Shown here piece by piece: positions 37,001-64,000 of a stretch of DNA of 64,000 nucleotides (positions within the stretch are counted from its first letter, which is position 1; each line of letters opens with the position of its first letter). The position numbers and the translations under genes are program-made. This DNA is from Escherichia phage Bf23: the sequence record OR083247.1. One strand, given 5' to 3'. The notes beneath the pieces are model-generated. The model was not told the DNA's origin and searched no databases. It worked only from the letters and a program-made list of their open reading frames with translations.

Positions 37001-37490
37001 TTTCAATCTGCCCGTCTATGCGTTACGGGCGTTTGTATCAATTGAGCAAGAAGGTGATTATTCCGTAATTACAACAAGATATAATAAATATGTGCTAGAT
37101 AACAGGAAGTTGCCTGGCACGTTTTCTCAACGTAGGCTTATTCTATTTGAGAAACGGAAAGAATTACCATACAAGCTCTATCCTATTAGGGGCAGAATAT
37201 CAATGTTGTCTCAATTAGTTGGGTCAAAGCGTAACCAATTTATAGATTCTGATGGAAATCTTATTAATTGGAAGAAAACTACGTTCTATGATGTTGTCAC
37301 CTCTAAAGTTTTACATTCAGCTAGAATTTATAATGGAAAATACCAATGCTATGTGGCTAAAGTCCCTTATCCATTTGTATTATCCTATGTTCCAGCTTAT
37401 ATAAGCTATATTCTGGTAAATAATAGCCCTGTTATTTATCAAGTCCATCAAGAGGAGCCTGAAATTCCTAGACTTAGAATAAAATTATGA
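36993..37490 (+). CDS. hypothetical protein (165 aa) with atypical codon usage
   Basis: Overlaps the polymerase stop and the helicase start; enriched in AGG/AGA/ATA/CTA codons compared with neighbours. Confidence 0.45.
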   Translation: MLNFNLPVYALRAFVSIEQEGDYSVITTRYNKYVLDNRKLPGTFSQRRLILFEKRKELPYKLYPIRGRISMLSQLVGSKRNQFIDSDGNLINWKKTTFYDVVTSKVLHSARIYNGKYQCYVAKVPYPFVLSYVPAYISYILVNNSPVIYQVHQEEPEIPRLRIKL

Positions 37491-38839
37491 AGGTTGTTAT
37501 ATCTAATAAAGCCTATTTCAAGCCCGATGATGAACTTTGGGATTATTGTAGTAAGCAAACCACTTATCACATAGAGACAATGACTAGTAAATACCCTATC
37601 ATGTATAAGAATAGTGGTGTTGTTGCCAAAGAGATTAAGTGGATTCCTATTACGCGTCTGGACTTACTAGATGCTAAAGGAGTAAAATACGAATTAGTCG
37701 ATAAACGCACATTAGCTCCGGTAGATATACCAAAACCTAAGTTCAAGCTGCGTGAAGAAGATCAGCTTCCAATATACGAAGAATGCGATGATACCTGTAT
37801 TATTAATGGTAAGCCTGGATTTGGTAAAACTATCCTAGCCCTTGCACTTGCGTATAAATTTGGCCAGAAAACTTTGGTAATCTGTACGAATACATCCATT
37901 CGTGAAATGTGGGCGGCAGAAGTTCGTAAATGGTTTGGGTTTGAACCAGGCATCATAGGTTCTGGGAAATACAATATTGATCCACCAATTGTAGTCAGTA
38001 ATATTCAAACAGTGAATAAACATGCGAATAATCTTTCTAAAGTATTCGGTACTGTTATAGTTGATGAAGTTCACCATTGTGTGGCTACAACTTTCACTAA
38101 CTTCCTAGAAATATCATGTGCTCGCTATAAAATTGGACTATCTGGTACACTAAAACGAAAAGATGGTTTACAAGTTATGTTCAAAGATTTCTTTGGATAT
38201 AAGATATTTAGCCCACCGGTTAATAATACTGTTGCACCTACAATCCATAGGTACTCCGTGCCTGTTGAGCTATCAGGAAACCAAAACGTACCGTGGGCAT
38301 TACGTGCTAACGATGTGTATAACCATCCTGAATATCGAGAGACTATTATAAACCTAGCACATTTATATGTGAATATGGGACATAAAGTACTCATTGTAAG
38401 TGATAGAACAGAGTTAATCCAAACAGTACTAGAAGCACTATCTCAGCGAGGAGTCACAACCTATGAGATTATTGGCGCAACCCACTTAGATGACCGATTA
38501 AAAATTCAGGAAGATATAGCAAAAGGTGGGCCTTGTGTGCTTGCAGCAGCTCAAAGTATCTTCTCGGAAGGTATTTCCCTTAATGAGCTATCTTGTTTAA
38601 TAATGGGAAGCCTCATTAATAATGAATCTCTCATTGAACAGCTTGCAGGCCGTGTTCAACGTATTGTTGATGGTAAACTCGACCCTATTGTTGTAGATCT
38701 AATTATGAAAGGTGGCACTGGGCTAAGACAGGCTTCTGGACGTATGGCAGTATATCGTAACAATGGGTGGAAAACTATTACTATGACTCCGGAGAAAGCA
38801 GTTCAATTAGCTAAAATTGCATTTGGCAACAGCTCATAA
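37487..38839 (+). CDS. SF2 DNA helicase (T5 D10-like, 450 aa)
   Basis: Walker A GKPGFGKT, DEAH-like VDEVHH, helicase C-terminal motifs. Confidence 0.8.
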   Translation: MKVVISNKAYFKPDDELWDYCSKQTTYHIETMTSKYPIMYKNSGVVAKEIKWIPITRLDLLDAKGVKYELVDKRTLAPVDIPKPKFKLREEDQLPIYEECDDTCIINGKPGFGKTILALALAYKFGQKTLVICTNTSIREMWAAEVRKWFGFEPGIIGSGKYNIDPPIVVSNIQTVNKHANNLSKVFGTVIVDEVHHCVATTFTNFLEISCARYKIGLSGTLKRKDGLQVMFKDFFGYKIFSPPVNNTVAPTIHRYSVPVELSGNQNVPWALRANDVYNHPEYRETIINLAHLYVNMGHKVLIVSDRTELIQTVLEALSQRGVTTYEIIGATHLDDRLKIQEDIAKGGPCVLAAAQSIFSEGISLNELSCLIMGSLINNESLIEQLAGRVQRIVDGKLDPIVVDLIMKGGTGLRQASGRMAVYRNNGWKTITMTPEKAVQLAKIAFGNSS

Positions 38840-38851
38840 ATGATGTATAAT
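38823..38851 (+). promoter_or_regulatory. promoter (-35 TTGGCA, 17-nt spacer, -10 TATAAT) followed by a hairpin terminator
   Basis: Hexamers overlap the helicase 3' end; downstream box ATAAATTTGAGAGAG then hairpin TTCGGA..TCCGAA and an A/T-run. Confidence 0.6.
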
Positions 38852-38923
38852 ATATACATAAATTTGAGAGAGAAAGTTTCGGATTGATAAGAAAGTCCGA
38901 AGCAGAAAAATAAAAATTTTAGT

Positions 38924-38952
38924 TGCTAAATTCTCTCGAAATCTAGTATAAT
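38924..38952 (+). promoter_or_regulatory. promoter (-35 TTGCTA, 18-nt spacer, -10 TATAAT)
   Basis: Consensus hexamers plus downstream ATAAATTCGAGGAG. Confidence 0.55.
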
Positions 38953-39059
38953 ATATACATAAATTCGAGGAGAAAACAAAAATTAAATTCTTCGATTATG
39001 AAAAGCTATACTTACTAGCTAGAGGAAATTCCGACCTAATTATTAAGCTCTTTAAAAGA

Positions 39060-39344: not shown

Positions 39345-40110
39345 GTCTTGGGGCGAAACTACTGGCGGTTCTAACGATAAAATCGAATTCCTGAAGTTCA
39401 ACAACGGTATCACTCGTGTTCGTATCGTTTCTGGTGTTCTTCCACGTTATGTCTATTGGCTGACTAATAAAGAAGGTAGCGTAGCTCCTTTCGAATGTCT
39501 CCGTTTTAACCGCGACAAAGAGAGCTTTGTTCGTGGTAAAGCTGATCCGGTTCATGAGATGGGCTTCTTTGAGAAAGAGCTAGATAAAGATGGTAATCGC
39601 GTTCCGCTGAAACCAAAGAAAAACTATATCGCTTTTGTTATCGACCGTTCTGATAACAAACTGAAAGTAATGGAAGTCAAAGCTACTATTCTGAAAGGCA
39701 TCCAGTCTATCATGAAGCAGTTGAATCTGGCAACTCCGTTTGATATTGATATTTCTATCGAGAAAAAAGGCAAAGGTTTCGATACTGAGTATGATGTACA
39801 ACAGATTGCTGCTATGCAGTTCCAGATTAAGCTGCAAGATCCTAATAGTGCAGAATCTAAGCAATATGCTGCTGATGTAGATCTGATCGGTGAAGCTATG
39901 TGTGACGAAGATGGCGACATCATTAAGTTCGAAAAAGTTCCTTCTCTGGAACAAACCTATCCGGTTCCTACCTATGAAGAGCAGAAAGAAGCAATTCAAG
40001 CCTTCATGGAAGGTCGCGAGAATAAAGATGATGATGCCAAATCTGGTAACAGCAATGCTGGTTCCCAGAAAGGTATTGATCACGAAGCTGCAAGCGATCT
40101 GGATGACTAA
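39337..40110 (+). CDS. putative ssDNA-binding protein (acidic C-terminal tail; 257 aa)
   Basis: High-expression codon usage; acidic tail EAASDLDD typical of SSB-type proteins; replication-module context. Confidence 0.45.
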   Translation: MAKSWGETTGGSNDKIEFLKFNNGITRVRIVSGVLPRYVYWLTNKEGSVAPFECLRFNRDKESFVRGKADPVHEMGFFEKELDKDGNRVPLKPKKNYIAFVIDRSDNKLKVMEVKATILKGIQSIMKQLNLATPFDIDISIEKKGKGFDTEYDVQQIAAMQFQIKLQDPNSAESKQYAADVDLIGEAMCDEDGDIIKFEKVPSLEQTYPVPTYEEQKEAIQAFMEGRENKDDDAKSGNSNAGSQKGIDHEAASDLDD

Positions 40111-40117
40111 TAGATAG

Positions 40118-40141
40118 AGGGGCTTCGGCCCCTTTCTTTTT
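40118..40141 (+). terminator. rho-independent terminator
   Basis: Hairpin AGGGGC-TTCG-GCCCCT followed by a T-run. Confidence 0.65.
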
Positions 40142-40146
40142 AACTT

Positions 40147-41124
40147 ATGAGAATATTATTTAGTGCTGATCATCATATCAAACTAGGACAAGATAAAGTT
40201 CCAAAGGAATGGCAGAAGCGTCGCTTCCTGATGCTAGGAGAACGGTTAAATGATATATTCCATAATCATAACTGTGATCTTCATATTGCTGGTGGTGATA
40301 TACTTGATGTTGCCGACCCGTCGTCAGAAGAAATAGAACTGCTTGAACAGTTCATGTCAAGACTTGACCATCCAGGCAAAATCTTTACTGGAAATCATGA
40401 AATGTTAACTAAAACCATTTCGTGTCTGTATCATTACGCGGGGGTTATTAATAAAGTAACTAGTGGGAAGTGGGAAGTAATTACCAAACCATATCGTTCC
40501 CCTGAATTTGATATTGTTCCATATGATGAGATCCATAAATCTAAGTGGAAACCTCCTGTATCAAAACTATGTTTCACGCATGTTCGTGGTGAAATCCCTC
40601 CACATGTAAAACCAGAAATTGATCTAACTAAGTACAACTGTTATGATACTGTAATTGCTGGCGATTTACATTCTTATACTAATAGCCAGACTATCGGATC
40701 TACTAGACTTCTCTACCCAGGATCTCCATTAACTACATCGTTCCATAGAGAACGCACAAAAGGTACAAATGGTTGTTTTATCGTTGATACCGACACATTA
40801 AAAGTAGAATGGATTGAACTAGGTGATTTACCACAACTGATTCGTAAAACAATCGGAGCAGGTGAAGAGATGGAACCTAGTGATTATGATCGTGTAGTCT
40901 ACGAAGTTACTGGTGACGTTGTTCAATTAAAGTCTATTAAAGACTCTGATTTATTAGATAAGAAGATTAACCATCGAGTTACTAAAGATGCTAAGTTAAA
41001 TCTTGTTGATCTTGATATGTTGGGCGAACTTGAACTTTACTTCCGTGAAGTCGAGAAGCTATCTCAAGGCGACATTGATAGAATCTTGGCTAGAGCTGCG
41101 AAATATGTCAAAGATTACAATTAA
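40147..41124 (+). CDS. SbcD/Mre11-like nuclease (T5 D12-like, 325 aa)
   Basis: Metallophosphoesterase motifs DHH, GD..D, GNHE. Confidence 0.8.
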   Translation: MRILFSADHHIKLGQDKVPKEWQKRRFLMLGERLNDIFHNHNCDLHIAGGDILDVADPSSEEIELLEQFMSRLDHPGKIFTGNHEMLTKTISCLYHYAGVINKVTSGKWEVITKPYRSPEFDIVPYDEIHKSKWKPPVSKLCFTHVRGEIPPHVKPEIDLTKYNCYDTVIAGDLHSYTNSQTIGSTRLLYPGSPLTTSFHRERTKGTNGCFIVDTDTLKVEWIELGDLPQLIRKTIGAGEEMEPSDYDRVVYEVTGDVVQLKSIKDSDLLDKKINHRVTKDAKLNLVDLDMLGELELYFREVEKLSQGDIDRILARAAKYVKDYN

Positions 41125-44973: not shown

Positions 44974-44978
44974 TAGAA

Positions 44979-45016
44979 AAACCCCAGTGGACAAAATCCA
45001 CTGGGGTTTCTTTTTA
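44979..45016. terminator. bidirectional rho-independent terminator between convergent early and late units
   Basis: Hairpin AAACCCCAGTGGA..TCCACTGGGGTTT flanked by A- and T-runs. Confidence 0.7.
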
Positions 45017-48000: not shown

Positions 48001-48817
48001 TTCTTTCGCTGGAGCTATGACTGAATCTCGAAACCTCATCTTTACGTGCATGACGTGTCCACTGTGGGCCTAGATTGCTTGCCCAACGATAGGTGTATAA
48101 TGAGCGACTACTCCATCCCTGAAAAATACCAGTATAAGAAGGAGAGCCATCATTAATAGATATAAAACCTGTTAAGTAGGCTTCTCCCGATGCAATAGAA
48201 GGCCACCCAGGCACACCCTCACGAATACGCATAAAACCAATATACGCAGAAGGATTACCGGAAATATCCGGGCAATCACGAACTGAATTACCAAGGCCTA
48301 TAGAAGCTTTCATACCAGAAGCTACATTTTCAGCTTTAGTAGCAGATGCCGCCGCATTAGTTTCTGAGGTCTTAGCATTGGTTTCTGATGCTTTAGCAGC
48401 ATTAGCACTGTTAGCAGCAGCAGTTTTACTATTATTAGCATTAGTTTCTGAAGTTTTAGCAGCCGTCTCACTAGCTTTTGCGTTAGTCTCAGAAGTCTTA
48501 GCAGCTTTAGCACTATTAGCAGAAGCAGTAGCAGAAGAAGCAGACTGAGTTGCAGACTGCTGGGAAGATGCCGCAGAAATTTCTGCTTCATTCTCAGAAT
48601 CTTTGGCATTTAGCTCTGACTGTTTTGCATTAATTTCAGATTGTTTAGCTGCTGCTGCAGAAGTCTTAGAGGATTCTATTGCAGTAGTTAGCTCACCAGC
48701 AGTGATAGAACTAATAGAATTAGAAAGCACAACTGTATACTTAGGATATTTACTTGCAGTTATACTATTCTGGTCCATAGTGACCATTTGCTGTAGAATT
48801 ATTTTAGTTATAGCCAT
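45020..48817 (-). CDS. ltf: L-shaped tail fibre protein (pb1-like, 1265 aa) with C-terminal intramolecular chaperone domain
   Basis: N-terminal Ala/Ser/Thr-rich repeats, long beta-rich shaft, C-terminal chaperone-like segment (DINYKTNIEEYDG..GVIAQQIEEIDPTYV). Confidence 0.8.
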   Translation of the reverse strand: MAITKIILQQMVTMDQNSITASKYPKYTVVLSNSISSITAGELTTAIESSKTSAAAAKQSEINAKQSELNAKDSENEAEISAASSQQSATQSASSATASANSAKAAKTSETNAKASETAAKTSETNANNSKTAAANSANAAKASETNAKTSETNAAASATKAENVASGMKASIGLGNSVRDCPDISGNPSAYIGFMRIREGVPGWPSIASGEAYLTGFISINDGSPSYTGIFQGWSSRSLYTYRWASNLGPQWTRHARKDEVSRFSHSSSERTVIFSSDDKSTGCYLQLDASGRWGYYSPADQNWKPLAIEQGGTGARDYNSALTNLNAMRDQKADLNGTDLNTLDGTRAGFYHQGANAGATSANHFPVTSAGALLVMQNNANGPQGGTQLYFPYNSINGSFYMRQYIKQSSTTGWEWTEWKIFQSYDWTSTPQFYALNLVRSSDANQVAGGILQCILNNGAGTQRTRLRLYPEFRGDNRGWATLHLQTGDKNQYLGMDEDGNVATNGKFIGSSAELRSNVSNPLTLTSQHPTIQFNETDRPANAPYYNFIFDGGNWRIQKDGDGYNGEYVIGYSYKNDQIDLPNVQAALLSVPKAKLQQTKDSLLIPNTGLSRWYDYNAPAGAEAKKYYPVIISHPAGWNGDAFVEVSMRTRSLSGSQEPNCNMIHMWIRDAGWSDMGQGAFGHYHCYDSGEVAILCVRGTDKAYYPHNAIYVRGDAFPIRLAATVGSTITIPTADWSPATASDAPVYKWGISDASDGIDGGLGIYGNLLDFTSGATGFYCSDTYRNKYGDSYQVVQANGIIQPPNGLGTYSDQDWNAQQSDGVNKFKAIAGNLNTPESSITYGGFHVGFSGTYATQFAGRNSKFFARSIEGGTVGEWLKLITATLAPKIPTDARDGFISDNAGDPSWAPSNGGGFQSSYAENRIMQSWIDGAGRLYSRFLTTNQPTTSKTDVPWKSAAMLELDNRFTGSNTFLGDILCSAANPLTLKSGNPTLSFVESDADNSTYMFVADGGGFRLNRDSTAGAELFNYSRTQNELKLGVSSYFTLNTRFEQGWTSKGSVDVTTTRYSGIAITTTAKGDATVGTRNLFEVSPDGALYVARRNNANNTGQWIINFPTAAGTLALSGTSDINYKTNIEEYDGIRSIENIKAMDLVTFVFKDDEKKRTRRGVIAQQIEEIDPTYVKHTYEPCGEPIVDDDGVVQGYTDTKERIVLDNNVLLLDALCAIKVLAQRDEEKTERINKLEKDVEDLKTVVEHLLTTMKNS
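48300..48720 (-). repeat. in-frame coding repeats within the ltf N-terminal region
   Basis: Repeated AK(T/A)SETNA peptide units from repeated GCAGCAGAAGCAGTAGC-type DNA. Confidence 0.6.
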
Positions 48818-54214: not shown

Positions 54215-54825
54215 AGACTTTCCCTCAAGGAAAGTGAAATACCAGAATAAGTACCATTGTTATTTAGGGTAGAACCGAAGGAATCTCCGTTCATTAGCTT
54301 AGTTCTAAATAAGATACCATTAAAAACTGGTTTTTCACTACCCGTAGTAGTAATAAATAGATCAGGATATAGGGAAATATTCCATACGTTTCCTGAGCTA
54401 CTAAAATTTGTTATTTTATAAACTTTAGGATGATTAGATAACTTAAATAAATCCCCAGCTTTTGGCTGCCCAGTCAAGGTTCCATTAGTATTTAGTATAA
54501 TTTGAGAACCTTTTTGACCGGCAGGTATGGTAACACTCTTAGTATCACCACGTACTCTAAATGCTTCATACTGAGGCAGGAGTACATCTAAATAATCTCC
54601 AGTTCTTTTATATTCTAAAAGCCTAGAGTCTAGAAATGCATATTCATCCGGGAAAAGTTCCGGGTATGAGATATTAATTCCCCAGTATTGAGCAGATATT
54701 TTAACCTCTTTGACTTTACCATTAGGTAATTCATCACGAATCATAGGGTCGTTATCTACTAAATTGACGCTTTCAAAACCTAACCCTGGGTACTCTGGGT
54801 TCGTGTATGGATCTGGTAGTCTCAT
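54211..54825 (-). CDS. distal tail protein (pb9-like, 204 aa)
   Basis: Size and position; strong RBS GAGGAGAAA. Confidence 0.6.
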   Translation of the reverse strand: MRLPDPYTNPEYPGLGFESVNLVDNDPMIRDELPNGKVKEVKISAQYWGINISYPELFPDEYAFLDSRLLEYKRTGDYLDVLLPQYEAFRVRGDTKSVTIPAGQKGSQIILNTNGTLTGQPKAGDLFKLSNHPKVYKITNFSSSGNVWNISLYPDLFITTTGSEKPVFNGILFRTKLMNGDSFGSTLNNNGTYSGISLSLRESL

Positions 54826-54852
54826 AGTTAATTTCTCCTCTTTAATAACAAT

Positions 54853-54881
54853 ATTATAATAGTATTGGAAAATTTTATCAA
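54853..54881 (-). promoter_or_regulatory. sigma70-like promoter (-35 TTGATA, 17-nt spacer, -10 TATAAT) upstream of the pb9-like gene
   Basis: Hexamers read on the minus strand. Confidence 0.5.
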
Positions 54882-54889
54882 GAAATTTT

Positions 54890-54930
54890 TATTTTTCCAT
54901 AAAGAAAAGGAGGACATAAAGTCCTCCTCC
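54890..54930 (-). terminator. rho-independent terminator after the tape measure gene
   Basis: Hairpin GGAGGAC-TTTAT-GTCCTCC followed by a T-rich tract on the minus strand. Confidence 0.6.
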
Positions 54931-54934
54931 AATA

Positions 54935-57900
54935 TTAAGAATTACCAAGAGATTTCAGGGTGGTTCCATTCTCATTAAGAGCCAGTTCCACGGCATCCCT
55001 GAAAGCAGTACTATTATTCGATGCAAAATCTCTGAAGCTTGCTGCATCCATAGTGCTGATATTCAGGATAATAGGTCTACCAGAAGAGGACCTTGATCCT
55101 TCGGAAAGCTGATCATTAGGCGTAGCTTTCATAGGAACCATAGGAGTAATTACCTCGGTACCATGCTCACCCATTTGATAGCTTACTCCAGGATACATCA
55201 TACCGCCTTCCGCACGTGGAACAAAGGAGTTAGCATTACCGATACCTTTATCACCACGTAGATAGGATAATTCTCCTGAGCTAGCTTGCATAGATACATC
55301 AACGTTCTTCTGTCGTTCACCTAGAGTTAAGTACTGAGTAGTATCTGCCCCAGAATCCGCAATAGAAGACATGCCAGATGCAGAAGATGCTTGAGCAAGA
55401 GCTAACGCACCTGCTAAACCTGCCGCCACCATCAAAGGAATAGAGAACGGATATGGTACAGCTGTTGCTGCTTGCATTACTGCTACTGCTGTCTGGATGA
55501 TGATCTGTTTCTTAGCTGCATCTTGCTGAATCTTCAGCTTTTCAGCTTCTAATTTTTTCAGCTTAGCTTTAGATGCCTCAGATTTGCCATCACGCTTCTG
55601 CTCTGCTGCAATAGCCTGATCAATTGCACTAACCTGCTGACTAGTACTGTATTGAATCATAGAAGCCACAGTCTGCATACCAGAAGCAATCATAGATGTA
55701 GTATCTAAAGACCCCTGGGAGAACTGAATCATAGAGTTGGTTAAATTACCCATACTCTGAGCCACCGCGGTTGCTTCAGAATTTAATTCAGATAGCTTAG
55801 AGATCGCCTGGTCATAGGAGGCCATTCTATTCTGCATATCAGCAAAATCTTTATCCTCTCCAGATAGCCCAGTTGTAGGAGTATACGTAGCTCCCACAGA
55901 AGATCCTACTTGTTGCTGCATCTGACTTTCTCTCTGCTTTCTAAGTTGCTCTAAAGCGGCAGCAGTTTTATAAATCTCATTACGATACTTAAGCTCTTCT
56001 TCTGTATTACCCTTAGATAGCTCCAGCTGTTGCTGCAGAATGGATAATCTTTCCGTAAGAATTTGGGATTGGCCAGTAACATTTCTTTGTGTTTGGCTGA
56101 CTTCTAGTGCATCCATGAGAGCTGATACATGTGAGGCAGTTGCCTGCTTTTCTGCTTCCCATAGCTCTCTACTTATCTGTGCCTGAGCACGTCTTGACTG
56201 TTCTACCTTAGCTTGACCATCCGCTTGTTTAGAGTATAACTTCGCTTTTTCCTGCTCTAACTGCAGCTCTAGTCTTAACTGCGCCAAACGATACTGAGTA
56301 CTCGTCATAGTGCGGTCATTCAGAAGAGCTATTTCTCTGTCAACACCAAGAATCTTATCAGTATAGTCTTTAACTTTCTTCTGAGCTTCCATACCCTGAT
56401 TGGTAAGTTTAAGTTTCTCTAGCTGAATTTTTTCAATTTCTTTCTCAACAGCTTTATTCCCCTGGTTTGTTTGAAGAACACGGCGTAAAGCAGCTTCTTG
56501 CTCTTCTAACTGTTGCAACTCTAAACGTCTACCAGCTTCCTGAGCTTTTTCCTTATCCTTAGTTTGATTATATACATCAGCTATCTTCTGTTGAACTGCT
56601 AACTGATTTTTAGTCTCATTACCTGTTAATTTAACATATTCAGATAGAGCTTGAGAAGCAGTTTTCATTTCAGATAGGGTATTAAACCCTAAGTTAAGAT
56701 TTTTAACATACTCATCCGCACTCTTACCAGTTCCTGCGGAGAGAGATTCTACATTTCTAATTACCTCTTCAAAAGTTGCACTAGTTTTAGCAGCGGTATC
56801 TGTACTACTAGCTATATTTTGAAAGTCATTAGCTAAATCACTAGACGTTTTCTTAGTTTGGTTATATGCTTTTTGTTGCTCTGTCAGACCTTTTAGAGCA
56901 GCAGAATTAAAGTCATATACAGCATCTGGGTCATATATATCTTTCTGTAGGTTAATCTGTTTCTGGAACTCTGGGTTAGCTTTTGTAGCAGCAGCCCCCG
57001 CGGTTTGAAATGCAGATTTCCAGGCATTGAGGTTCTCGGTAGAATCAGTAACTTCTTTATCCAAGCGTGCTACTTGTAGACCCATAGCTGCAGTTTCTGC
57101 TACAAATTGCTTATTGGCCTCCGAAGCACCTGCTGCTGCAAGACCAACAGGAATACCTTCACCAACTTGACGTATAGCTAATTTTGTATAGAAATCTGCT
57201 TGTTCCATTCGTTTATCGAACTCAGATTTTAGCTTATTACGCTTATCAAGGGATTCCCTATACATATCTAGAGCTTTATTATATCCTTCCTCAGAAGCAG
57301 CCAAACTTAAAGCAACAGCACCAACGTTGGTAGGATCTATCTGTTTATTAGTTTTTTCTTGAGCTCTAGCTGCCTCAGCAGATACAGAAGCCTGAGATAT
57401 ATAGAATACCGTATTGATGGCATCGACTACTGGCCCTAAATACTTAGCAGCAGCTTGTTGTATTGTTCTTAGTGCAGCATCTGCGTTAGCAGCAAACTGC
57501 TCCCACGGAGTAGCACGCAGAACTTCATCTAGATATCCGAATTGTTTAGTAGATTCTGCTATAGCAGCCTTAGCGTATGCCTGCTGTTTCTGGAAAGTAG
57601 TAAGACTATTAATGTTATAAGTTATACCCGTGTTAGCAGCATTTAGCTGTTTAACATAGTCAGCATAAGCATCGTTAAGACGAATAGTAATACCAAGTTC
57701 ATCCATAAGTTCGATTTCTTGTTTAGATATACCCTTAATTACACGGTTAAGTGCATCAGTCATATCAACACCAAGAACAGCAGCTGCACGACGTGCTATC
57801 AAACCAAACTGCTCCAGTTGTTCCCTGTCAAATCCATAAGCGGAGGCAGTAGATGCTTGCCTCATAGCTTCTTCAAAAGAGATTGCATAGCCAGCTGCCT

Positions 57901-58615
57901 CTTGTAGTGATCTAGCAAGGGACTGAACAGGAGTACCTGTTATGGTGCCAACAATAGTACCAAACTGTTCTAACCTGTTTAGCTGATCACCTACTTTTAG
58001 GCTCTCAAAAGCAGTCTGTAGGACGAATACGTTAGAAGCAATAGCAGCGTATAATATTGGTAAACCACCACCAACTTTAGCCATTGCAGCAAAGTCACGA
58101 GTAGCTCCGCGTGCGGAACCGGAAGTATTACCTAAAGCTCTAGAAGCCCTACCAGCAGCACCAGCAGTGTCATTAAAACCTCTAGTTGTACCGCCTAAAA
58201 CTCTATTGGTGTCATACAATCTATCTTGAACTTTCTCTGTTGCAGCTGCAACATCATTACCCATTGCTTTAACAGATCTAGAAACTCCATCAAATCCAAT
58301 TTCTAGTTTATCTGTTACTTCAATAAGTTGGATAGCCAGGTAATCTAGCTTATCACCAATACCATCAATGGATTTAGTGATGCCAGCCATACCCCTACTA
58401 GCTTGCATTTTAGTAAGACTTTTTGCTGCCCTGTCTGCTGCCCTCTCAATGGAGTATAGAGTTTTGGGCATTTTACCTAACTGTTCATTTGTCAGTTCGG
58501 AAGCAGCAGCAGCATTTTCTAATGCATCAGATACGTTTTCAATAGACTTTGCAGTACGGGTTGCCCCCTTCTGTTTAACGTCTATCAGTAATTCTCGTAT
58601 TAGCTTATCAGTCAT
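54935..58615 (-). CDS. tail tape measure protein (pb2-like, 1226 aa)
   Basis: Very long coiled-coil-rich protein with hydrophobic Ala/Gly-rich segment. Confidence 0.85.
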   Translation of the reverse strand: MTDKLIRELLIDVKQKGATRTAKSIENVSDALENAAAASELTNEQLGKMPKTLYSIERAADRAAKSLTKMQASRGMAGITKSIDGIGDKLDYLAIQLIEVTDKLEIGFDGVSRSVKAMGNDVAAATEKVQDRLYDTNRVLGGTTRGFNDTAGAAGRASRALGNTSGSARGATRDFAAMAKVGGGLPILYAAIASNVFVLQTAFESLKVGDQLNRLEQFGTIVGTITGTPVQSLARSLQEAAGYAISFEEAMRQASTASAYGFDREQLEQFGLIARRAAAVLGVDMTDALNRVIKGISKQEIELMDELGITIRLNDAYADYVKQLNAANTGITYNINSLTTFQKQQAYAKAAIAESTKQFGYLDEVLRATPWEQFAANADAALRTIQQAAAKYLGPVVDAINTVFYISQASVSAEAARAQEKTNKQIDPTNVGAVALSLAASEEGYNKALDMYRESLDKRNKLKSEFDKRMEQADFYTKLAIRQVGEGIPVGLAAAGASEANKQFVAETAAMGLQVARLDKEVTDSTENLNAWKSAFQTAGAAATKANPEFQKQINLQKDIYDPDAVYDFNSAALKGLTEQQKAYNQTKKTSSDLANDFQNIASSTDTAAKTSATFEEVIRNVESLSAGTGKSADEYVKNLNLGFNTLSEMKTASQALSEYVKLTGNETKNQLAVQQKIADVYNQTKDKEKAQEAGRRLELQQLEEQEAALRRVLQTNQGNKAVEKEIEKIQLEKLKLTNQGMEAQKKVKDYTDKILGVDREIALLNDRTMTSTQYRLAQLRLELQLEQEKAKLYSKQADGQAKVEQSRRAQAQISRELWEAEKQATASHVSALMDALEVSQTQRNVTGQSQILTERLSILQQQLELSKGNTEEELKYRNEIYKTAAALEQLRKQRESQMQQQVGSSVGATYTPTTGLSGEDKDFADMQNRMASYDQAISKLSELNSEATAVAQSMGNLTNSMIQFSQGSLDTTSMIASGMQTVASMIQYSTSQQVSAIDQAIAAEQKRDGKSEASKAKLKKLEAEKLKIQQDAAKKQIIIQTAVAVMQAATAVPYPFSIPLMVAAGLAGALALAQASSASGMSSIADSGADTTQYLTLGERQKNVDVSMQASSGELSYLRGDKGIGNANSFVPRAEGGMMYPGVSYQMGEHGTEVITPMVPMKATPNDQLSEGSRSSSGRPIILNISTMDAASFRDFASNNSTAFRDAVELALNENGTTLKSLGNS

Positions 58616-58618
58616 AAT

Positions 58619-58663
58619 TTATTTTTCCCAATAAAAAAGGCTCTGGGCAAATCACCCAGAGCC
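58619..58663 (-). repeat. conserved 22-nt element TTATTTTTCCCAATAAAAAAGG plus GC hairpin immediately upstream of the tape measure start (copy 1)
   Basis: Identical 22-mer recurs at 63624-63645. Confidence 0.6.
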
Positions 58664-58698
58664 AAGCCTCATCGTGGAACGCCCATTGGAGGAAACTT

Positions 58699-59067
58699 TT
58701 ACCGTGCGCGAGATCTAGCATGTGGCTTAACGTTAGGAATCCTTCCGTTTTGCGGTTTATGCTTCTCAGCACGTTTACGTGCAGCATCTACAGCTTTAGC
58801 ATCAAATATATTGATAATGTGTAGAACAAATTCTTTTTCTATGGGATCAGTAATCCCATAAATATCAAATAAAACACCTAAAGCAGCCTTGTCTTTACCT
58901 ATAAAAATAGGGAAGTCACCAGGTATGAAACAGTCAACTAGACTATTATAAATATTCATACTAATAGCTACAATAGGTGGAAAGTCTTCAAGTTCAACAG
59001 GCATAGCTTTAGGATCAGGCTCTATACCCATTGATTCACAAAGTATTAAATATTGTTGTTTAGTCAT
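58699..59067 (-). CDS. tail assembly chaperone, downstream part (122 aa from first ATG; frame open further upstream)
   Basis: Frame is open from 59154 and overlaps the upstream chaperone ORF by about 25 nt in the +1 frame; no SD upstream of its ATG. Confidence 0.45.
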   Translation of the reverse strand: MTKQQYLILCESMGIEPDPKAMPVELEDFPPIVAISMNIYNSLVDCFIPGDFPIFIGKDKAALGVLFDIYGITDPIEKEFVLHIINIFDAKAVDAARKRAEKHKPQNGRIPNVKPHARSRAR

Positions 59068-59128
59068 TTTAGATGCTGAGCTTTTAATACACTTATCTGC
59101 AAAATCAGCAACAGCATCTAGTAATTCT

Positions 59129-59533
59129 TTACGCTTTTGAGCTACGAAAAGTATCTAAGTGGAACACTGTCTGGTTGATCCAAGAATCAAACGCAGCAGA
59201 GTTCTGCATAAGCATTACAGCATTATCACGACTAAATGGAACTTCAGTAGCAGGATCAGCATCTGTTTCAATCAGCATGAGTTTTTCAACGTCACCTACA
59301 GTCAAACCAGTCCAACCTTTAATCGCAGCATCAACGAAAGCTTCAATGAACTTATCATCATCCTGTACCTGAATCAAAGTACCATTAACCCACTCATCAC
59401 GCTTAGCAGAGGTGATAACTCGTTTAGAAGTAGCACGAGACATATAATTAAGCTCTAGCTTAAAGTTTGGCATACCTGGGTATGCAAGAGTGACAGTACG
59501 AGTTTCTAAAGTAATATCTTTTAAGTTAATCAT
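59129..59533 (-). CDS. tail assembly chaperone (134 aa)
   Basis: Position between tail tube/p140 and the tape measure gene. Confidence 0.5.
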   Translation of the reverse strand: MINLKDITLETRTVTLAYPGMPNFKLELNYMSRATSKRVITSAKRDEWVNGTLIQVQDDDKFIEAFVDAAIKGWTGLTVGDVEKLMLIETDADPATEVPFSRDNAVMLMQNSAAFDSWINQTVFHLDTFRSSKA

Positions 59534-60429
59534 TATTTTCTTTCTCCAAAGAAGTTTATTTCTACAGGATCTGAATCAGCAGTAGGAATTACATCATACT
59601 CTACCTGATACAAATCTGAGAATTTTAGGCGTTTTGAAATACGTGCTAAAGGAAATGTTACAGAAACATATTTATTTTTAATAATTAGTGGAGTTCTTGT
59701 TTCAGGATCTAGATTCAAGAACTTATCTCCTACCAATCTCTTAACGTAATAGAAAGCTAACGTTGCAGAAGCATTCATTTCATTGACATAAGCTCGTTTA
59801 TTAGTATAAACTTTATTTATATCAAATATACTTCTATCTTCTCTCCAAGAACATTGTTGCTGGAAGGACATAGATGCTGAAACTAATGCAGGCAATGGTG
59901 CGCTATTAGTATACACAGCTGGAGGACTATATGGGAGTACTTCACCTTGTGTAATCGTATATCCATCACGGAAAGTAGATACTTCAGAGAATTTTCCAGA
60001 CTCAATACCAACATTTAGGATCGGTATACTCTTATCTAGAGAAAAGTCAACTGTTGATACATAACAGTTTTCAAAGTAAATACAGCTATTATTACGGTTA
60101 ATAATATACATATTGAACATAATAGGTTCAATATTGGGAGTATTTCTTGGCAAAAATAAAGAATTTCCCTCACGCGTGAATCCCATCCAATCAAAGAAGT
60201 TAGATTCAATAAGCGTAGTACTGAAATTTATTGCCAATGAAATAGATGAAGGATCTTGAGCATTAATAATAGAGTCTGCATAGTTTGTACGATTATGAAT
60301 AGTACGTCTAAGAGTTTTAAACTCTTGAAAAGACGTACTAGCGTCATAGTTAGAGAGGGCATCGAAATGATACCCTCTACCGTCGTACTCAATAACTATT
60401 TTAGACTCTCGCATGAGAGAATAAAACAT
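59533..60429 (-). CDS. minor tail protein (p140-like, 298 aa)
   Basis: Size and position directly downstream of the tail tube gene. Confidence 0.5.
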   Translation of the reverse strand: MFYSLMRESKIVIEYDGRGYHFDALSNYDASTSFQEFKTLRRTIHNRTNYADSIINAQDPSSISLAINFSTTLIESNFFDWMGFTREGNSLFLPRNTPNIEPIMFNMYIINRNNSCIYFENCYVSTVDFSLDKSIPILNVGIESGKFSEVSTFRDGYTITQGEVLPYSPPAVYTNSAPLPALVSASMSFQQQCSWREDRSIFDINKVYTNKRAYVNEMNASATLAFYYVKRLVGDKFLNLDPETRTPLIIKNKYVSVTFPLARISKRLKFSDLYQVEYDVIPTADSDPVEINFFGERK

Positions 60430-60433
60430 TTAA

Positions 60434-61828
60434 TTAACCACCTGCTGTTACAGTAATAACTTTAGTGCCTTTAACACCAGAGCCATCTTTAGCCGTAGCT
60501 TCAACAGTTACCGCACCTGTTTTACTAGCATCTGCTGTTAACAGTCCTGTTGCATTGATAGTAGCTGCATCACCGGCAGTGATAGCCCAAGTAACTTCCT
60601 TATTCTTTGCGGAAGAAGGAGTAACTTCAACACTCATCTGAAGAGTAGCTGATCTATTTAATGTAGCAACATTTCCAGCAGACTTAACAGTAATTGCGGT
60701 TACAGCTTCAGAAGCACCGTCACCATTAACAATTAGATTATTAATAGTTGTTCTAGTATACTTACTAGAGAAGCCTAAGTAACCTTCGTCACCAGCATCC
60801 AGATCTGACGGAATAGCCTTAAATTCTACTGAAGTACCAAGCACATCATCAGTCTCAATAGTAGGAATATTAACGTGCGCCTGTTTAGCTACCAGAATGG
60901 CAGCAGGACGTTCCTCGTCATATTCGCCACCAAGTACTAGAGCAATTTCGAAGCGGTTAACTACCTTCAGAGTTTTGATAAGATCTTTATATAGTTCCAT
61001 AGAACCAAGAGATTTATCATTCAGGTAAGCAGTTAATGAACCAGTTAACTCAAAAGCACCAGTAAATGAGCCGATCGGAATAGTAACACGAGACATTACG
61101 TTAGGTGTTAGGTAAGTAATGTTGTTGTTAATAGTAAAAGTACCACCGGTAATCGGTATATCATAAGACTTATCGGTATCCATGTCCTTGATCTTCAAGA
61201 TCGTTAGTTTGTTCTTAATGTAAGAACCCTGGATAGTCATATAAGTTTCGTCATCAATACCTATTTGATCTGGATCAAATGGTTGCTCATCCAGTGGGAT
61301 TAGCTGGTTACCATTACCAGACCAAGTTACACGACCAATATCTTCAATATCAACGTTAACTTCTGCCTGATTAATCTGACAGGAATCGATATAACTCCAT
61401 GTTTTATCAGTCAGAATGTAAATATGTAACATTGCTAACTCATGATAGGAGTTATCTTTAAAGTTAACCATGAAGTTAGTAGCATTATTATGTGCTCCAG
61501 TAGTTCCTTCAAGATTAATAGCTCTACCACTAGAAAGTGCATGCCATAACATATAGTCAGGAACAATTTGTTTGCTAGTAGTTTTATCTTTATACGGCAG
61601 GATGTAAGTAGAGAAACTCCACTCAGCTGCGTTTAAAGAGTCGTTAAAACGTTTAGAACCACGAGTTGGACGCGGACCAGCTTCATTAACAGTAATATCT
61701 GTTGAGTTACTGTCCTGACCCCAAGAAATATCATCCTGAACTAGAATCTCTTGCGTGTTGGTCTTATTGTGACCAGTCTTAACCGTAGACACGAAGATTC
61801 GAGTATTACGTAATAGTTGTAAAGACAT
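60434..61828 (-). CDS. major tail tube protein (pb6-like, 464 aa) with C-terminal Ig-like domain
   Basis: Length matches pb6 as I recall it; C-terminal region resembles bacterial Ig-like decoration domains. Confidence 0.75.
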   Translation of the reverse strand: MSLQLLRNTRIFVSTVKTGHNKTNTQEILVQDDISWGQDSNSTDITVNEAGPRPTRGSKRFNDSLNAAEWSFSTYILPYKDKTTSKQIVPDYMLWHALSSGRAINLEGTTGAHNNATNFMVNFKDNSYHELAMLHIYILTDKTWSYIDSCQINQAEVNVDIEDIGRVTWSGNGNQLIPLDEQPFDPDQIGIDDETYMTIQGSYIKNKLTILKIKDMDTDKSYDIPITGGTFTINNNITYLTPNVMSRVTIPIGSFTGAFELTGSLTAYLNDKSLGSMELYKDLIKTLKVVNRFEIALVLGGEYDEERPAAILVAKQAHVNIPTIETDDVLGTSVEFKAIPSDLDAGDEGYLGFSSKYTRTTINNLIVNGDGASEAVTAITVKSAGNVATLNRSATLQMSVEVTPSSAKNKEVTWAITAGDAATINATGLLTADASKTGAVTVEATAKDGSGVKGTKVITVTAGG

Positions 61829-61854
61829 TTAATTATTTTCTCCTAATCTGTAAC

Positions 61855-62340
61855 TTATCTGCGAAGTGACCTACGTGGAGGCTGATACCTCACTGTTACA
61901 TTTATTTCTGCTAAACCATATGGGGCCAGTAGACCCTCATCTGTACTAACTGATGTAATGATCATATCAGTTGCCTCACATGGGAAGGTCGATCCATTAG
62001 GTTTACTAACAGTATATTCTAAATTTCCACCTGTGTCAATAACGGTTTTTATATCCGCTACGAGTTTTTCAAGTTGCTCTTGAATGTCTGTTTTCTCTTT
62101 ATCGTACACCAGGATTGGAAGTTCTAAAAACATCCACTGTTGGCCTGAAGGAAGATACTGCCCAGTTTCAGTTCCGATATGAACTGCTACATAAGGAAAC
62201 TCTCGTATTTCCTCAAATTTATAAGTTTGACGAGAAACGTTTCCATATAGGTTATTAAAATATTCGTCAGGTTGAGAACCATCCATTTGTTTAGAGATTC
62301 GGTCAACCATAGCTTGTGCAATACTTGTTCTATGGTCCAT
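61855..62340 (-). CDS. tail terminator/completion protein (161 aa)
   Basis: Position immediately upstream of the tail tube gene. Confidence 0.45.
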   Translation of the reverse strand: MDHRTSIAQAMVDRISKQMDGSQPDEYFNNLYGNVSRQTYKFEEIREFPYVAVHIGTETGQYLPSGQQWMFLELPILVYDKEKTDIQEQLEKLVADIKTVIDTGGNLEYTVSKPNGSTFPCEATDMIITSVSTDEGLLAPYGLAEINVTVRYQPPRRSLRR

Positions 62341-62343
62341 TTA

Positions 62344-63111
62344 TTAGGTTCCTTGATTAACCTTAATTTTATATCTGGAGTGAATCAGGTCTCTTGCAGC
62401 TTTTGCTATAGCCTCACCAATAAGTTTTTGTGGGTTTCTAGCGCCAGGATAAGGTCGTAGAGATAATCTTCTATATGTAGATACTGCTGGGTTGAATACA
62501 GAATATGGACGAGTCATATAATTATATGTTACGTTTAATTCAGGAGAGCCTTTACTAATTTCAGAATCACGAAGCATAACATCTTTAATTTTTAAAGAGT
62601 TTGCAAAGCGACCAGTTCTAAATTTTAACGGTGCTCCAGCTTTTTTCATATCCTTTATTAAGTATTCTTTAGCAACTATCTCTAATATAATTTTCATATT
62701 GCTGTTAGACACGAAACGTCCAGAAGCACCTGTTACTGCACCAGAATATCCATCTTCAACATCACTAGGATCACCAAAGTTTACCTGCACTCTACCAGTA
62801 GAACGTTTTTTACCTACTGAGGATTTTTTACCAGCGGTTGCTTGTATTAGGCTCTCCAGAGCACCTAAATCTCCAGAAAGATCTAAACTAGAGGATATAG
62901 CCTTTAATATAGAAGCTGTTCTAATGTTAAGGAGATCTTGTGATACAGGTTTTGAAAACTTAAAAGATACTTGAGCAACAGTACCATCTCTAGTAGGATC
63001 TTTTAATCCTGTTTCAACAGAGTATACAACAGTATTCTTATTGTTCTCAGATCGGCTTGCAGTATCTAGCTGCTCTTTAATAATTTGTCTAGCTAGATCA
63101 GAAAGAGACAT
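62344..63111 (-). CDS. head-tail joining / tail completion protein (255 aa)
   Basis: Position in the neck module. Confidence 0.4.
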   Translation of the reverse strand: MSLSDLARQIIKEQLDTASRSENNKNTVVYSVETGLKDPTRDGTVAQVSFKFSKPVSQDLLNIRTASILKAISSSLDLSGDLGALESLIQATAGKKSSVGKKRSTGRVQVNFGDPSDVEDGYSGAVTGASGRFVSNSNMKIILEIVAKEYLIKDMKKAGAPLKFRTGRFANSLKIKDVMLRDSEISKGSPELNVTYNYMTRPYSVFNPAVSTYRRLSLRPYPGARNPQKLIGEAIAKAARDLIHSRYKIKVNQGT

Positions 63112-63623
63112 TATACTCTCCTATATACTTCAATAATAGTACGAATATGCTCTGGAATACCAGATTTAGTATTATTGAATGTTACTGTTTCACCACCAAT
63201 TGTTTTAGCTTGGCGATAATCTTGTTTGTGCCAATGATCTACTAGCATACATGCTGCAAGTTTGAGATCTTCAGGCATTGGATTAAATCCACCTTGTGTA
63301 TATTCTACGTCCATATAACCTTCCGGAGGGTTAAATTTAAGAAGTATAACCCCATCAGAATACAGCTTATACTGTTCGGGATCTATCTCCTTATCATTAA
63401 TAGTCATTTTGGTTACTGAAGTAGCTGAGGGAGAACTTAAAAAGTATTTTTTTCGAGCAGGTTTTGTATTGATTAACTGGTCTACCGCATCAGCATCATC
63501 CATACCTAAAAGGCTAGTAATCAGCGCATTGGCAGCAGTAATCATCACCTCTACTCCAGATTCTAGTTCCGGTCGTTTTAACCCGCCGTATAATCTATAG
63601 TCTTCAGCTGTGATTATTTGCAT
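63111..63623 (-). CDS. head completion / adaptor protein (170 aa)
   Basis: Position in the neck module; preceded by the conserved 22-nt element. Confidence 0.45.
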   Translation of the reverse strand: MQIITAEDYRLYGGLKRPELESGVEVMITAANALITSLLGMDDADAVDQLINTKPARKKYFLSSPSATSVTKMTINDKEIDPEQYKLYSDGVILLKFNPPEGYMDVEYTQGGFNPMPEDLKLAACMLVDHWHKQDYRQAKTIGGETVTFNNTKSGIPEHIRTIIEVYRRV

Positions 63624-63668
63624 TTATTTTTCCCAATAAAAAAGGAGAGCCGAAGCTCTCCTTATCGG
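63624..63668 (-). repeat. conserved 22-nt element TTATTTTTCCCAATAAAAAAGG plus GC hairpin (copy 2); terminator of the upstream structural gene
   Basis: Identical 22-mer to 58619-58640; hairpin AAGGAGAGC-CGAA-GCTCTCCTT. Confidence 0.6.
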
Positions 63669-63682
63669 CTGAAAAGCCTGTA

Positions 63683-64000
63683 TTAAGATGCAGCGTAAGT
63701 ACCAGATACAACGCCATTATTAAAGTAACGTTGCAGGTTAACACGCTGAGTAACGTAGTATGCATCACGCTGTTTACCAGCTTGGCGCTCACGTTCAACA
63801 GTAACAGCACGCTGACGCGGCATTACGAAGTTATCTTTATAAACAATAACTGCGAACTCTGCTGAGTTAGCTTTAGCTGGGAAGAATTCAGAAACTACAA
63901 CCGGCAGACCATAAATACGACCAACCTGACCTTGCAGTTTAACAGCATCGTTACCAACCTGTGCAACATCCTGCCATTCTTCATCTTCCAGCAGATCGTA
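63683..64000 (-). CDS. virion structural protein, C-terminal fragment (possibly capsid-associated), truncated by window edge
   Basis: Minus-strand frame open from 64000 to a TAA at 63683-63685; high-expression codon usage; not in the ORF track because no start lies in the window. Confidence 0.45.
   Translation of the reverse strand, partial: YDLLEDEEWQDVAQVGNDAVKLQGQVGRIYGLPVVVSEFFPAKANSAEFAVIVYKDNFVMPRQRAVTVERERQAGKQRDAYYVTQRVNLQRYFNNGVVSGTYAAS

What the first reader, a model, noticed from the sequence alone, without database searches (positions are those of the whole stretch)
58619..63668. Identical 22-nt element abutting the start codons of two late genes, each preceded by a different hairpin
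The 22-mer TTATTTTTCCCAATAAAAAAGG (plus strand) occurs at 58619-58640 and 63624-63645, within 0-3 nt of the start codons of the tape measure gene and the 170-aa head-completion gene. Each copy is preceded by a distinct GC-rich hairpin. On the coding strand it reads hairpin, U-tract, AUUGGGAAAAAUAA, AUG. This looks like a reused terminator-plus-translation-initiation or processing module specific to late genes.
Basis: seen in the sequence. Interest (0 to 1): 0.45.

Follow-up and report, generated by a model that had tools for sequence, protein, structure and literature searches.

The report
Two phage T5 terminators sharing a tail
The repeated 22-mer is the U-rich tail of two ordinary transcription terminators fused to the weak ribosome-binding site of the next gene in a T5-like phage; the terminators are already annotated in phage T5, so the finding is real but ordinary.

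Summary
The exact repeat is 24 nt (58617-58640 and 63622-63645). A third copy, 79% identical, lies at 54887-54910.

The window is a T5-like phage (Tequintavirus) whose late structural operon runs on the minus strand. Copy A lies between the major capsid gene and the 170-aa adaptor (p144) gene. Copy B lies between the tail chaperone ORFs and the tape measure gene (pb2).

Each copy has two parts:
- The tail of a strong GC hairpin: CC + TTTTTTATT.
- A weak Shine-Dalgarno site (GGGA) with an A-rich spacer that runs into the ATG.

The T5 reference record already annotates both hairpins, and the one at the third copy, as putative rho-independent terminators. Relatives keep the hairpin and T-tract as far out as Vibrio phages, and hairpin B shows compensatory changes. 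The ribosome-site half drifts by lineage, and in T5 an endonuclease gene has replaced it.

No promoter fits between terminator and ATG. The low-copy downstream proteins must therefore be made from read-through transcripts: p144 at 12 copies against 775 for the capsid protein, and pb2 against 120 for the tube protein. This is the same logic as T7's terminator after its capsid gene.

No transcript data were available. Interest is low.

The parts
63622..63645 (-). Copy A of the shared 24-mer. Coding strand: CCTTTTTTATTGGGAAAAATAAAT. The last AT is the start of the ATG.
58617..58640 (-). Copy B of the shared 24-mer, followed by T and then the ATG at 58615.
63642..63663 (-). Hairpin A: 9 bp with a C(UUCG)G tetraloop, -14.5 kcal/mol. 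Stem of the terminator after the major capsid gene.
   Evidence: The homologous T5 position is annotated as a putative rho-independent terminator. The same core occurs in at least 50 unrelated viral contigs.
58639..58663 (-). Hairpin B: 10 bp, -19.1 kcal/mol. Stem of the terminator after the tail chaperone ORFs.
   Evidence: Across 9 relatives, 6 of 10 pairs show compensatory changes and 96.6% of cells are paired. Annotated as a terminator in T5.
63635..63643 (-). U-tract of terminator A (TTTTTTATT).
   Evidence: Conserved in Klebsiella, Enterobacter, Providencia and Vibrio phi 3 relatives.
58630..58638 (-). U-tract of terminator B (TTTTTTATT).
63624..63634 (-). Ribosome-binding half of copy A: weak SD GGGA plus the A-rich spacer AAAATAA.
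   Evidence: SD/anti-SD duplex -4.2 kcal/mol, against -7.3 for pb6, -9.1 for pb9 and a median of about -6. This half varies by lineage.
58616..58629 (-). Ribosome-binding half of copy B: GGGA + AAAATAA + ATT.
   Evidence: The spacer before the ATG varies among close relatives (none, AAC, AAT, ATT). In T5 this half is replaced by the endonuclease gene T5.141.
63111..63623 (-). Head completion / adaptor gene (T5 p144 homologue, 170 aa, 12 copies per virion).
54935..58615 (-). Tape measure gene (T5 pb2 homologue, 1226 aa).
63683..64000 (-). 3' end of the major capsid gene (T5 pb8 homologue, 775 copies per virion), cut by the window edge. Stop codon at 63685-63683.
58699..59067 (-). Second tail assembly chaperone ORF (T5.142 homologue), the gene upstream of terminator B.
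54887..54930 (-). Site C: a third late-operon terminator. Hairpin at 54930-54906, -15.4 kcal/mol. Its tail (54910-54887) is 79% identical to the 24-mer, in the same register from the hairpin.
   Evidence: Annotated as a terminator in T5.
54853..54881 (-). Sigma-70 promoter TTGATA-17-TATAAT, homologue of T5 late promoter PG25. It restarts transcription for the tail-tip genes.
   Evidence: PG25 is active late in vivo by primer extension (PMC7472727).
62011..62039 (-). Sigma-70 promoter TTGACA-17-TATACT inside the tail terminator gene, at the position of T5 late promoter PJ5, upstream of the tail tube gene.
44977..45011 (.). Bidirectional terminator at the end of the late operon.
   Evidence: T5 annotation: 'efficient bidirectional rho-independent transcription terminator'.

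Best explanation
The two copies are the 3' tails of two separate intrinsic (rho-independent) terminators inside the late structural operon of a T5-like phage. Each tail is fused to the ribosome-binding region of the next gene.

Proposed mechanism:
1. Host RNA polymerase transcribing the major capsid gene (site A) or the tail tube and chaperone genes (site B) meets a stable GC hairpin followed by UUUUUUAUU. Most transcripts end there. The hairpin probably also protects the 3' end of the abundant upstream message.
2. A minority of polymerases read through.
3. Only read-through transcripts carry the next gene. Its weak GGGA Shine-Dalgarno site and A-rich, unstructured spacer start directly after the U-tract.
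4. Partial termination plus a weak ribosome site sets low output for proteins needed in few copies: the adaptor p144 at 12 per virion against 775 capsid subunits, and the tape measure pb2 against 120 tube subunits.
5. The internal late promoters PJ5 and PG25 raise transcription again where more product is needed.

The 24-nt identity is best explained as two sites under the same constraints. They have been near-identical for a long time and differ elsewhere by single-base run-length changes. They are not a mobile or duplicated unit.

Shown here: the anatomy, the conservation, the covariation and the lack of room for a promoter. Inferred: termination, read-through and the effect on protein ratios.
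For: Anatomy:
- Stable hairpins of -14.5 and -19.1 kcal/mol, each followed at once by TTTTTTATT. Both lie downstream of a stop codon and in the direction of transcription.
- The T5 RefSeq record annotates the homologous positions, and site C, as putative rho-independent terminators. They are the only three annotated inside the late operon.

Conservation:
- Hairpin B keeps its pairing through compensatory changes. Across nine relatives, 6 of 10 pairs change on both sides and 96.6% of cells are paired; 0 of 500 shuffles reach the observed value on four of the five measures.
- Hairpin A shows a G-C to A-T swap in L059 and L063 and different but paired stems in Vibrio phages.
- The same architecture at the same two gene junctions is present in Providencia, Klebsiella, Enterobacter and Vibrio members of the family.
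- Within about 26 close relatives, the intergenic columns are almost invariant while third codon positions nearby vary.
- The hairpin A core plus a T-run occurs in many unrelated viral contigs, always in a terminator-like context.

The two halves are separable:
- T5 keeps hairpin B plus CCTTTTTTATT, but an endonuclease gene follows instead of GGGAAAAATAA.
- More distant relatives have other SD sequences after the same T-tract.
- The GGGA site is weak: -4.2 kcal/mol against -7 to -9 for high-copy genes.
- Other genes in the window use the same kind of SD plus AAAATAA spacer.

Operon logic:
- Only 11 and 14 nt separate the U-tract from the ATG, and no promoter-like site was found there.
- PJ5 and PG25 are proven late promoters.
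- Virion copy numbers come from PMC11313276.
Against: - No transcript 3'-end or read-through data for T5 were found in the searchable literature. Termination efficiency and read-through are therefore inferred.
- Common constraints explain high similarity, but an exact 24-nt identity kept across two genera is more than strictly needed.
- The third copy at site C has the GGAAAAATAAA block at the same distance from its hairpin, although no start codon follows. The ribosome-site reading does not explain this. There the block may serve as the A-rich upstream region of PG25.
- The stretches upstream of both hairpins are also strongly conserved for unknown reasons.
Confidence: 0.8

Rival explanations
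1. The shared 24-mer is a sequence-specific cis-element. It would be an RNA operator or cleavage site recognised by a phage or host factor, such as a translational repressor, an antiterminator or an endoribonuclease. That factor would co-regulate the adaptor and tape measure genes.
For: - The exact identity at two sites is retained across Tequintavirus and Epseptimavirus genomes.
- A near-identical form is present at both sites in Providencia and Klebsiella relatives.
- A third related copy sits in the same register at site C.
- UUUAUU-GGGAAA-AAUAAA can form a small hairpin that shows GGGA in its loop.
Against: - The small hairpin is marginal: -1.5 kcal/mol, and 18 of 200 shuffles fold as well.
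- The distal half is replaced by ordinary SD sequences in other lineages at the same junctions.
- T5 itself lacks the distal half at site B.
- Run-length variants are tolerated.
- There is no Rfam match, and the stems are too short for RNase III.
- No candidate factor is known.
Confidence: 0.08
2. The identity comes from copying between the sites. The route would be duplication, gene conversion, or co-conversion during movement of the homing-endonuclease-like genes that use these two gaps. On this view it is a truly reused module.
For: Homologous endonuclease-like genes (CapR domain, 36% identity, E 3e-35) sit at site B in T5 and at site A in L059, L063 and L068. Genomes with the insert at site A carry variant hairpin and tail sequences next to it.
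Against: - The hairpins and all other flanking sequence are unrelated between A and B.
- Variants at one site are never mirrored at the other in the same genome. Ongoing conversion is therefore not seen.
- The insertion points differ: upstream of hairpin A, but downstream of the T-tract at B.
- Distant lineages have similar but non-identical tails, which fits slow independent drift.
Confidence: 0.07
3. The hairpins act mainly as RNA stabilisers or barriers to 3' exonucleases after processing, rather than as sites where polymerase stops. The tail similarity is incidental.
For: Very stable hairpins, one with a C(UUCG)G tetraloop, lie at the end of the most abundant late message. From general knowledge, such hairpins are known stabilisers in T4 intercistronic regions.
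Against: A perfect U6-rich tract directly after each stem is conserved across the family. That tract is the hallmark of termination and is not needed for a stabiliser. The two roles are not exclusive.
Confidence: 0.05

Closest known systems
Putative rho-independent terminators annotated in the phage T5 reference genome (NC_005859: 101563-101586, 96553-96587, 92087-92113)
   Same: They lie at homologous positions, between the same genes. Hairpin A and its tail are identical. Hairpin B is the same apart from one loop base.
   Different: The T5 annotation does not note the shared tail. In T5, site B is followed by the endonuclease gene T5.141, so T5 has only one full copy of the 22-mer.
Phage T7 terminator T-phi after the major capsid gene 10 (general knowledge)
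   Same: An intrinsic terminator sits directly after the most highly expressed structural gene. Downstream low-copy structural genes are expressed from read-through transcripts.
   Different: T-phi acts on T7 RNA polymerase, whereas T5 uses host sigma-70 polymerase. Here the U-tract abuts the next start codon within 11-14 nt, and two terminators share the same tail.
C(UUCG)G tetraloop hairpins in phage T4 intercistronic regions (Tuerk et al. 1988, general knowledge)
   Same: Hairpin A has the C(UUCG)G loop and lies between cistrons of a virulent coliphage. The same hairpin core recurs in many unrelated phages.
   Different: Hairpin B has a different loop. The role here is inferred, not measured.
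Terminator-promoter pairs of the T5 early region and site C (PG25)
   Same: Each has a GC hairpin, a T-run and an A/T-rich stretch.
   Different: At sites A and B, no promoter follows. The next element is the start codon.

Membership tests
Intrinsic (rho-independent) transcription terminator | GC-rich stem-loop with a stem of about 5-14 bp and a loop of 3-8 nt | tested here: met
   A: 9 bp, loop of 4, -14.5 kcal/mol. B: 10 bp, loop of 5, -19.1 kcal/mol.
Intrinsic (rho-independent) transcription terminator | U-rich tract directly after the stem | tested here: met
   UUUUUUAUU starts 0-2 nt after both stems. It is conserved across the family.
Intrinsic (rho-independent) transcription terminator | Located downstream of a stop codon, in the direction of transcription | tested here: met
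   A begins 20 nt after the capsid gene stop. B begins 35 nt after the chaperone ORF stop. Both are on the coding strand of the late operon.
Intrinsic (rho-independent) transcription terminator | Stem maintained by compensatory substitutions in relatives | tested here: met
   B: 6 of 10 pairs have double changes and 96.6% of cells are paired. A: a G-C to A-U swap in L059/L063 and different paired stems in Vibrio phages.
Intrinsic (rho-independent) transcription terminator | RNA 3' ends map to the U-tract in vivo or in vitro | not testable with these tools
   No T5 3'-end mapping data were found.
Shine-Dalgarno translation initiation region | Purine-rich match to the 16S 3' end, 5-10 nt before a start codon of a conserved ORF | tested here: met
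   GGGA lies 7 nt (A) and 10 nt (B) before the ATG. The duplex is -4.2 kcal/mol, weaker than the window median of about -6. The ORF starts are conserved.
RNase III processing site (T7 R-site type) | Stem of about 20 bp or more, usually with an internal loop | tested here: not met
   The stems are 9-10 bp. There is no Rfam match.
Dispersed repeat or mobile intergenic element (REP/MITE-like) | Many copies per genome, with the whole unit repeated including its hairpin | tested here: not met
   There are two exact copies per genome at most. The hairpins differ and only the tail is shared.
T5 nick (single-strand interruption) site | Consensus 5'-NPu pGCGCN-3' | tested here: not met
   The consensus is quoted in the T5 annotation. 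There is no GCGC in the 24-mer or in either hairpin.
Sigma-70 promoter | -35 and -10 hexamers with 16-18 nt spacing, placed so that the transcript includes the ribosome site | tested here: not met
   The scan found no promoter-like site at either copy. Only 11-14 nt lie between the U-tract and the ATG.

The most novel reading that the evidence does not exclude
The 24-mer, with its degenerate third copy, is a sequence-specific signal shared by all three internal terminators of the T5 late operon. One possibility is a binding site for a late factor that sets read-through or translation of the genes behind them. Another is the recognition region of the CapR-domain endonuclease family that occupies both gaps in different phages.
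Probability: 0.07. Interest if true: 0.45.

Novelty: already known. Interest (0 to 1): 0.12.

Why it matters
It matters little beyond annotation. It shows how a T5-like phage can set the ratios of its structural proteins with three internal terminators, two internal late promoters and ribosome sites of graded strength. It also gives precise sites for anyone who maps T5 transcripts or engineers these phages. The two gaps tolerate inserted genes in nature. If the shared tail proved to be a specific regulatory signal, it would be a modest new point about T5 late gene control, which is still poorly understood.

Tried and rejected
- Rfam at a permissive threshold over 54700-64000 gave only chance-level hits, none at sites A or B.
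- The promoter scan found nothing at A or B. I also looked by eye for a promoter that would use the A-rich block as an upstream element, as at site C, and found no credible hexamers.
- I searched for more copies. There are none in the window with up to 3 mismatches. There are none within 5 edits in the remaining 46 kb of the closest relative, apart from one chance match inside a coding region. No IMG/VR genome has more than two exact copies.
- Gene conversion between sites is rejected because variants are site-specific.
- The conserved stretch before hairpin B is not a coding extension or small ORF, because the Enterobacter phage has a 2-nt indel there.
- An antiterminator pairing of the upstream UGGGC with the 3' arm of hairpin B is rejected. 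It does not co-vary in Klebsiella or Enterobacter phages.
- A T5 nick site is rejected because the GCGC consensus is absent.
- RNase III is rejected because the stems are too short.
- A profile search for distant loci with the adaptor protein alignment failed, because no block was conserved enough.
- The BF23 late gene paper (PMC197117) is not held.
- Literature searches found no Term-seq or 3'-end map for T5.
Full report
**What the window is.** Positions 58300-64000 match Tequintavirus genomes over their full length. The closest is Salmonella phage GEC_vB_N5 at 97.6%, and 547 T5-like records match in all. The late structural genes run on the minus strand from the window edge down to 45020. 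By homology with the annotated T5 genome, the order is:
- major capsid protein pb8, cut by the window edge;
- the 170-aa adaptor / head completion protein p144;
- the tail completion protein;
- the tail terminator p142;
- the tail tube protein pb6;
- a 298-aa minor tail protein;
- two chaperone ORFs;
- the tape measure protein pb2;
- the distal tail protein, followed by the tail tip genes.

**Check of the observation.** The 22-mer is present exactly at both stated positions. There are no other matches with up to three mismatches, and none in shuffled sequence.
- The identity is 24 nt: 58617-58640 and 63622-63645.
- The repeat finder adds a third copy in register at 54887-54910, 79% identical.
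- On the coding strand, site A reads AAGGAGAGC-UUCG-GCUCUCCUU, then UUUUAUUGGGAAAAAUAA, then AUG.
- Site B reads GGCUCUGGGU-GAUUU-GCCCAGAGCC, then UUUUUUAUUGGGAAAAAUAAAUU, then AUG.
- The hairpins fold at -14.5 and -19.1 kcal/mol.
- The gene assignments are correct.

**What it is.** The T5 RefSeq record annotates the homologous hairpins as putative rho-independent transcription terminators. It does the same for a third hairpin after the tape measure gene, which is followed by promoter P-G25.
- In the T5 annotation, these three are the only terminators inside the late operon. The operon starts at a promoter upstream of the pb5 gene and ends at a bidirectional terminator.
- The window has all of these features, including sigma-70-like promoters at the PG25 and PJ5 positions.
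- Klimuk et al. showed by primer extension that PJ5 and PG25 are active late in infection (PMC7472727).

**The element has two separable halves.** The first half, CC plus TTTTTTATT, is the end of the stem plus the U-tract. The second half, GGGA plus AAAATAA, is a weak Shine-Dalgarno site and an A-rich spacer. Four observations show that the halves are separable.
- In T5 itself, hairpin B and CCTTTTTTATT are intact. The sequence that follows is the leader of an inserted endonuclease gene (T5.141), which runs up to the tape measure ATG.
- In more distant relatives, the hairpin and T-tract persist at the same two junctions while the second half changes:
  - AGAGGTATATA (L073, site A);
  - GGGTAAAAT and GGAAAAAATC (Klebsiella phage Roth37);
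  - ATGGGTACTAC and a longer leader (Enterobacter phage KKP_3711);
  - AGGTGAAATTCAT (L121, site B);
  - GGAGGTAATAAA and AGGAGAAAACTCATA (Vibrio phage phi 3).
- Other genes of the window use the same style of ribosome site: an SD followed by AAAATAA-like spacers. One early gene at 30774 has TTGGAGAAAAATAATA before its ATG, with no terminator nearby.
- GGGA pairs with the 16S 3' end at only -4.2 kcal/mol. The tube gene scores -7.3, the distal tail gene -9.1, and the median is near -6.

**Evidence that the hairpins are functional RNA stems.**
- Across nine diverse relatives, hairpin B keeps 96.6% of cells paired.
- Six of its ten pairs change on both sides.
- No shuffle out of 500 reaches the observed value on four of the five measures, and all slid registers score far lower.
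- Hairpin A is invariant in enterobacterial members. It shows a G-C to A-U swap in L059 and L063 and different paired stems in Vibrio phages.
- The invariance of hairpin A is less striking than it looks. The core GAGAGC-TTCG-GCTCTC plus a T-run occurs in at least 50 unrelated viral contigs, always in a terminator-like setting. It is a generic, recurrent terminator sequence.
- Within about 26 close relatives, both intergenic regions are almost invariant while nearby third codon positions vary. Selection therefore acts on them.

**How it most likely works.**
- Only 11 nt (A) and 14 nt (B) lie between the U-tract and the start codon, and no promoter-like site is there.
- The adaptor gene and the tape measure gene can therefore be transcribed only by polymerases that read through the terminator. 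This step is an inference.
- The protein numbers fit. There are 775 capsid subunits against 12 adaptor and 6 tail terminator subunits, and 120 tube subunits against the tape measure inside the tube (PMC11313276).
- PJ5 then raises transcription for the tube gene, terminator B lowers it again, and terminator C plus PG25 resets it for the tip genes.
- Partial termination combined with a weak ribosome site gives low output.
- This is the same logic as the T7 terminator after its capsid gene (general knowledge).

**Why the two tails are identical.**
- Variants at one site are never mirrored at the other in the same genome. Ongoing gene conversion is therefore not seen. Examples are run-length changes, GGG to GG, and an ATT insertion.
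- In Providencia, Klebsiella and other lineages, the two tails are similar but not identical.
- The simplest reading is that both sites have long had almost the same sequence because they obey the same rules. In the Tequintavirus/Epseptimavirus clade they happen to coincide exactly.
- One observation is not fully explained. The copy at site C has GGAAAAATAAA at the same distance from its hairpin, although no start codon follows. There it lies just upstream of the -35 of PG25 and may act as its A-rich upstream region.
- A specific trans-acting factor cannot be excluded, but nothing requires one.
- The small UUUAUU/AAUAAA hairpin within the element is marginal at -1.5 kcal/mol.

**Comparison with known systems, and novelty.**
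- The sites meet every sequence-level criterion of intrinsic terminators. Mapping of the RNA ends could not be tested.
- They do not meet the criteria for RNase III sites, dispersed repeats, T5 nick sites (consensus with GCGC) or promoters.
- The terminators are already annotated in T5, and the architecture is classical. I therefore rate the finding as already known.
- The shared tail is a small new detail.

**Limits.** No transcript-end data for any T5-like phage were found in the searchable literature. Termination efficiency, read-through and the effect on protein ratios are inferred from sequence and comparative evidence.

Noticed in passing
window 54853-54930 (minus strand): A third late-operon terminator whose tail is 79% identical to the 24-mer in the same register. 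It is followed by a strong sigma-70 promoter (TTGATA-17-TATAAT, the T5 PG25 homologue) and a strong SD before the distal tail gene.
   Followed up: yes
window 58664-58698 (minus strand); also L075, L076, L077, L078: The 35 nt between the chaperone ORF stop and hairpin B (AAGTTTCCTCCAATGGGCGTTCCACGATGAGGCTT) are conserved from Tequintavirus to Providencia, Klebsiella and Enterobacter phages, and partly in Vibrio phi 3. A 2-nt indel in the Enterobacter phage argues against coding. The function is unknown. It may form a second hairpin, GGCGUUC...GAGGCU.
   Followed up: partly
window 63664-63682 (minus strand): A small hairpin, GGCU-UUUC-AGCC, lies upstream of hairpin A. Relatives keep it as GGC(N)...(N)GCC, and the fourth pair switches from U-A to A-U in the Enterobacter and Providencia phages. 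The alignment was too shifted for a formal count.
   Followed up: partly
L074 5778-6530 (T5 gene T5.141); L059 5876-6448: Homologous endonuclease-like genes occupy the two terminator gaps in different phages. They carry a CapR homology domain and a treble-clef zinc finger and are 36% identical (E 3e-35). One is at site B in T5, inserted right after CCTTTTTTATT. The other is at site A in L059, L063 and L068, between the capsid stop and the hairpin.
   Followed up: partly
window 58699-59533 (minus strand): The 122-aa chaperone ORF has no Shine-Dalgarno site (-0.1 kcal/mol). Its frame is open for about 27 nt upstream into the end of the 134-aa ORF, in the +1 frame. A +1 (or -2) shift near UCA AAA GCG UAA would fuse them, like the G/GT chaperone pair of other siphophages.
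   Followed up: partly
window 40110-40150 (plus strand): An early-region hairpin with a UUCG loop (GAGGGGCTTCGGCCCCTTTC) plus a T-run ends 5 nt before the ATG at 40147 of a 325-aa ORF. No SD lies in between (-1.5 kcal/mol). This is another terminator that abuts a start codon.
   Followed up: no
window 14040-14100 (minus strand): A hairpin, AAGGAGATC-TTCG-GGTCTCCTT plus a T-run, closely resembles hairpin A. It lies in the early region and is followed by a TTGCTA promoter-like sequence.
   Followed up: no
window 1912-17668 and 19821-38953: There are families of 40-58 nt repeats (D1, D2, D4, D5, D7). These are the stereotyped T5 early promoters with a shared leader ending in AAATTTGAGAG. Regulatory sequences in this genome are generally reused almost word for word.
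   Followed up: no
window 48333-48670: Six copies of a 21-nt-period repeat lie inside the 1265-aa L-shaped tail fibre gene. This is a coding repeat.
   Followed up: no
L080-L145 (IMG/VR contigs): The sequence GAGAGCTTCGGCTCTC plus a T-run, usually preceded by an A-run, recurs in dozens of unrelated viral contigs of very different sizes. It looks like a convergent ideal terminator.
   Followed up: partly
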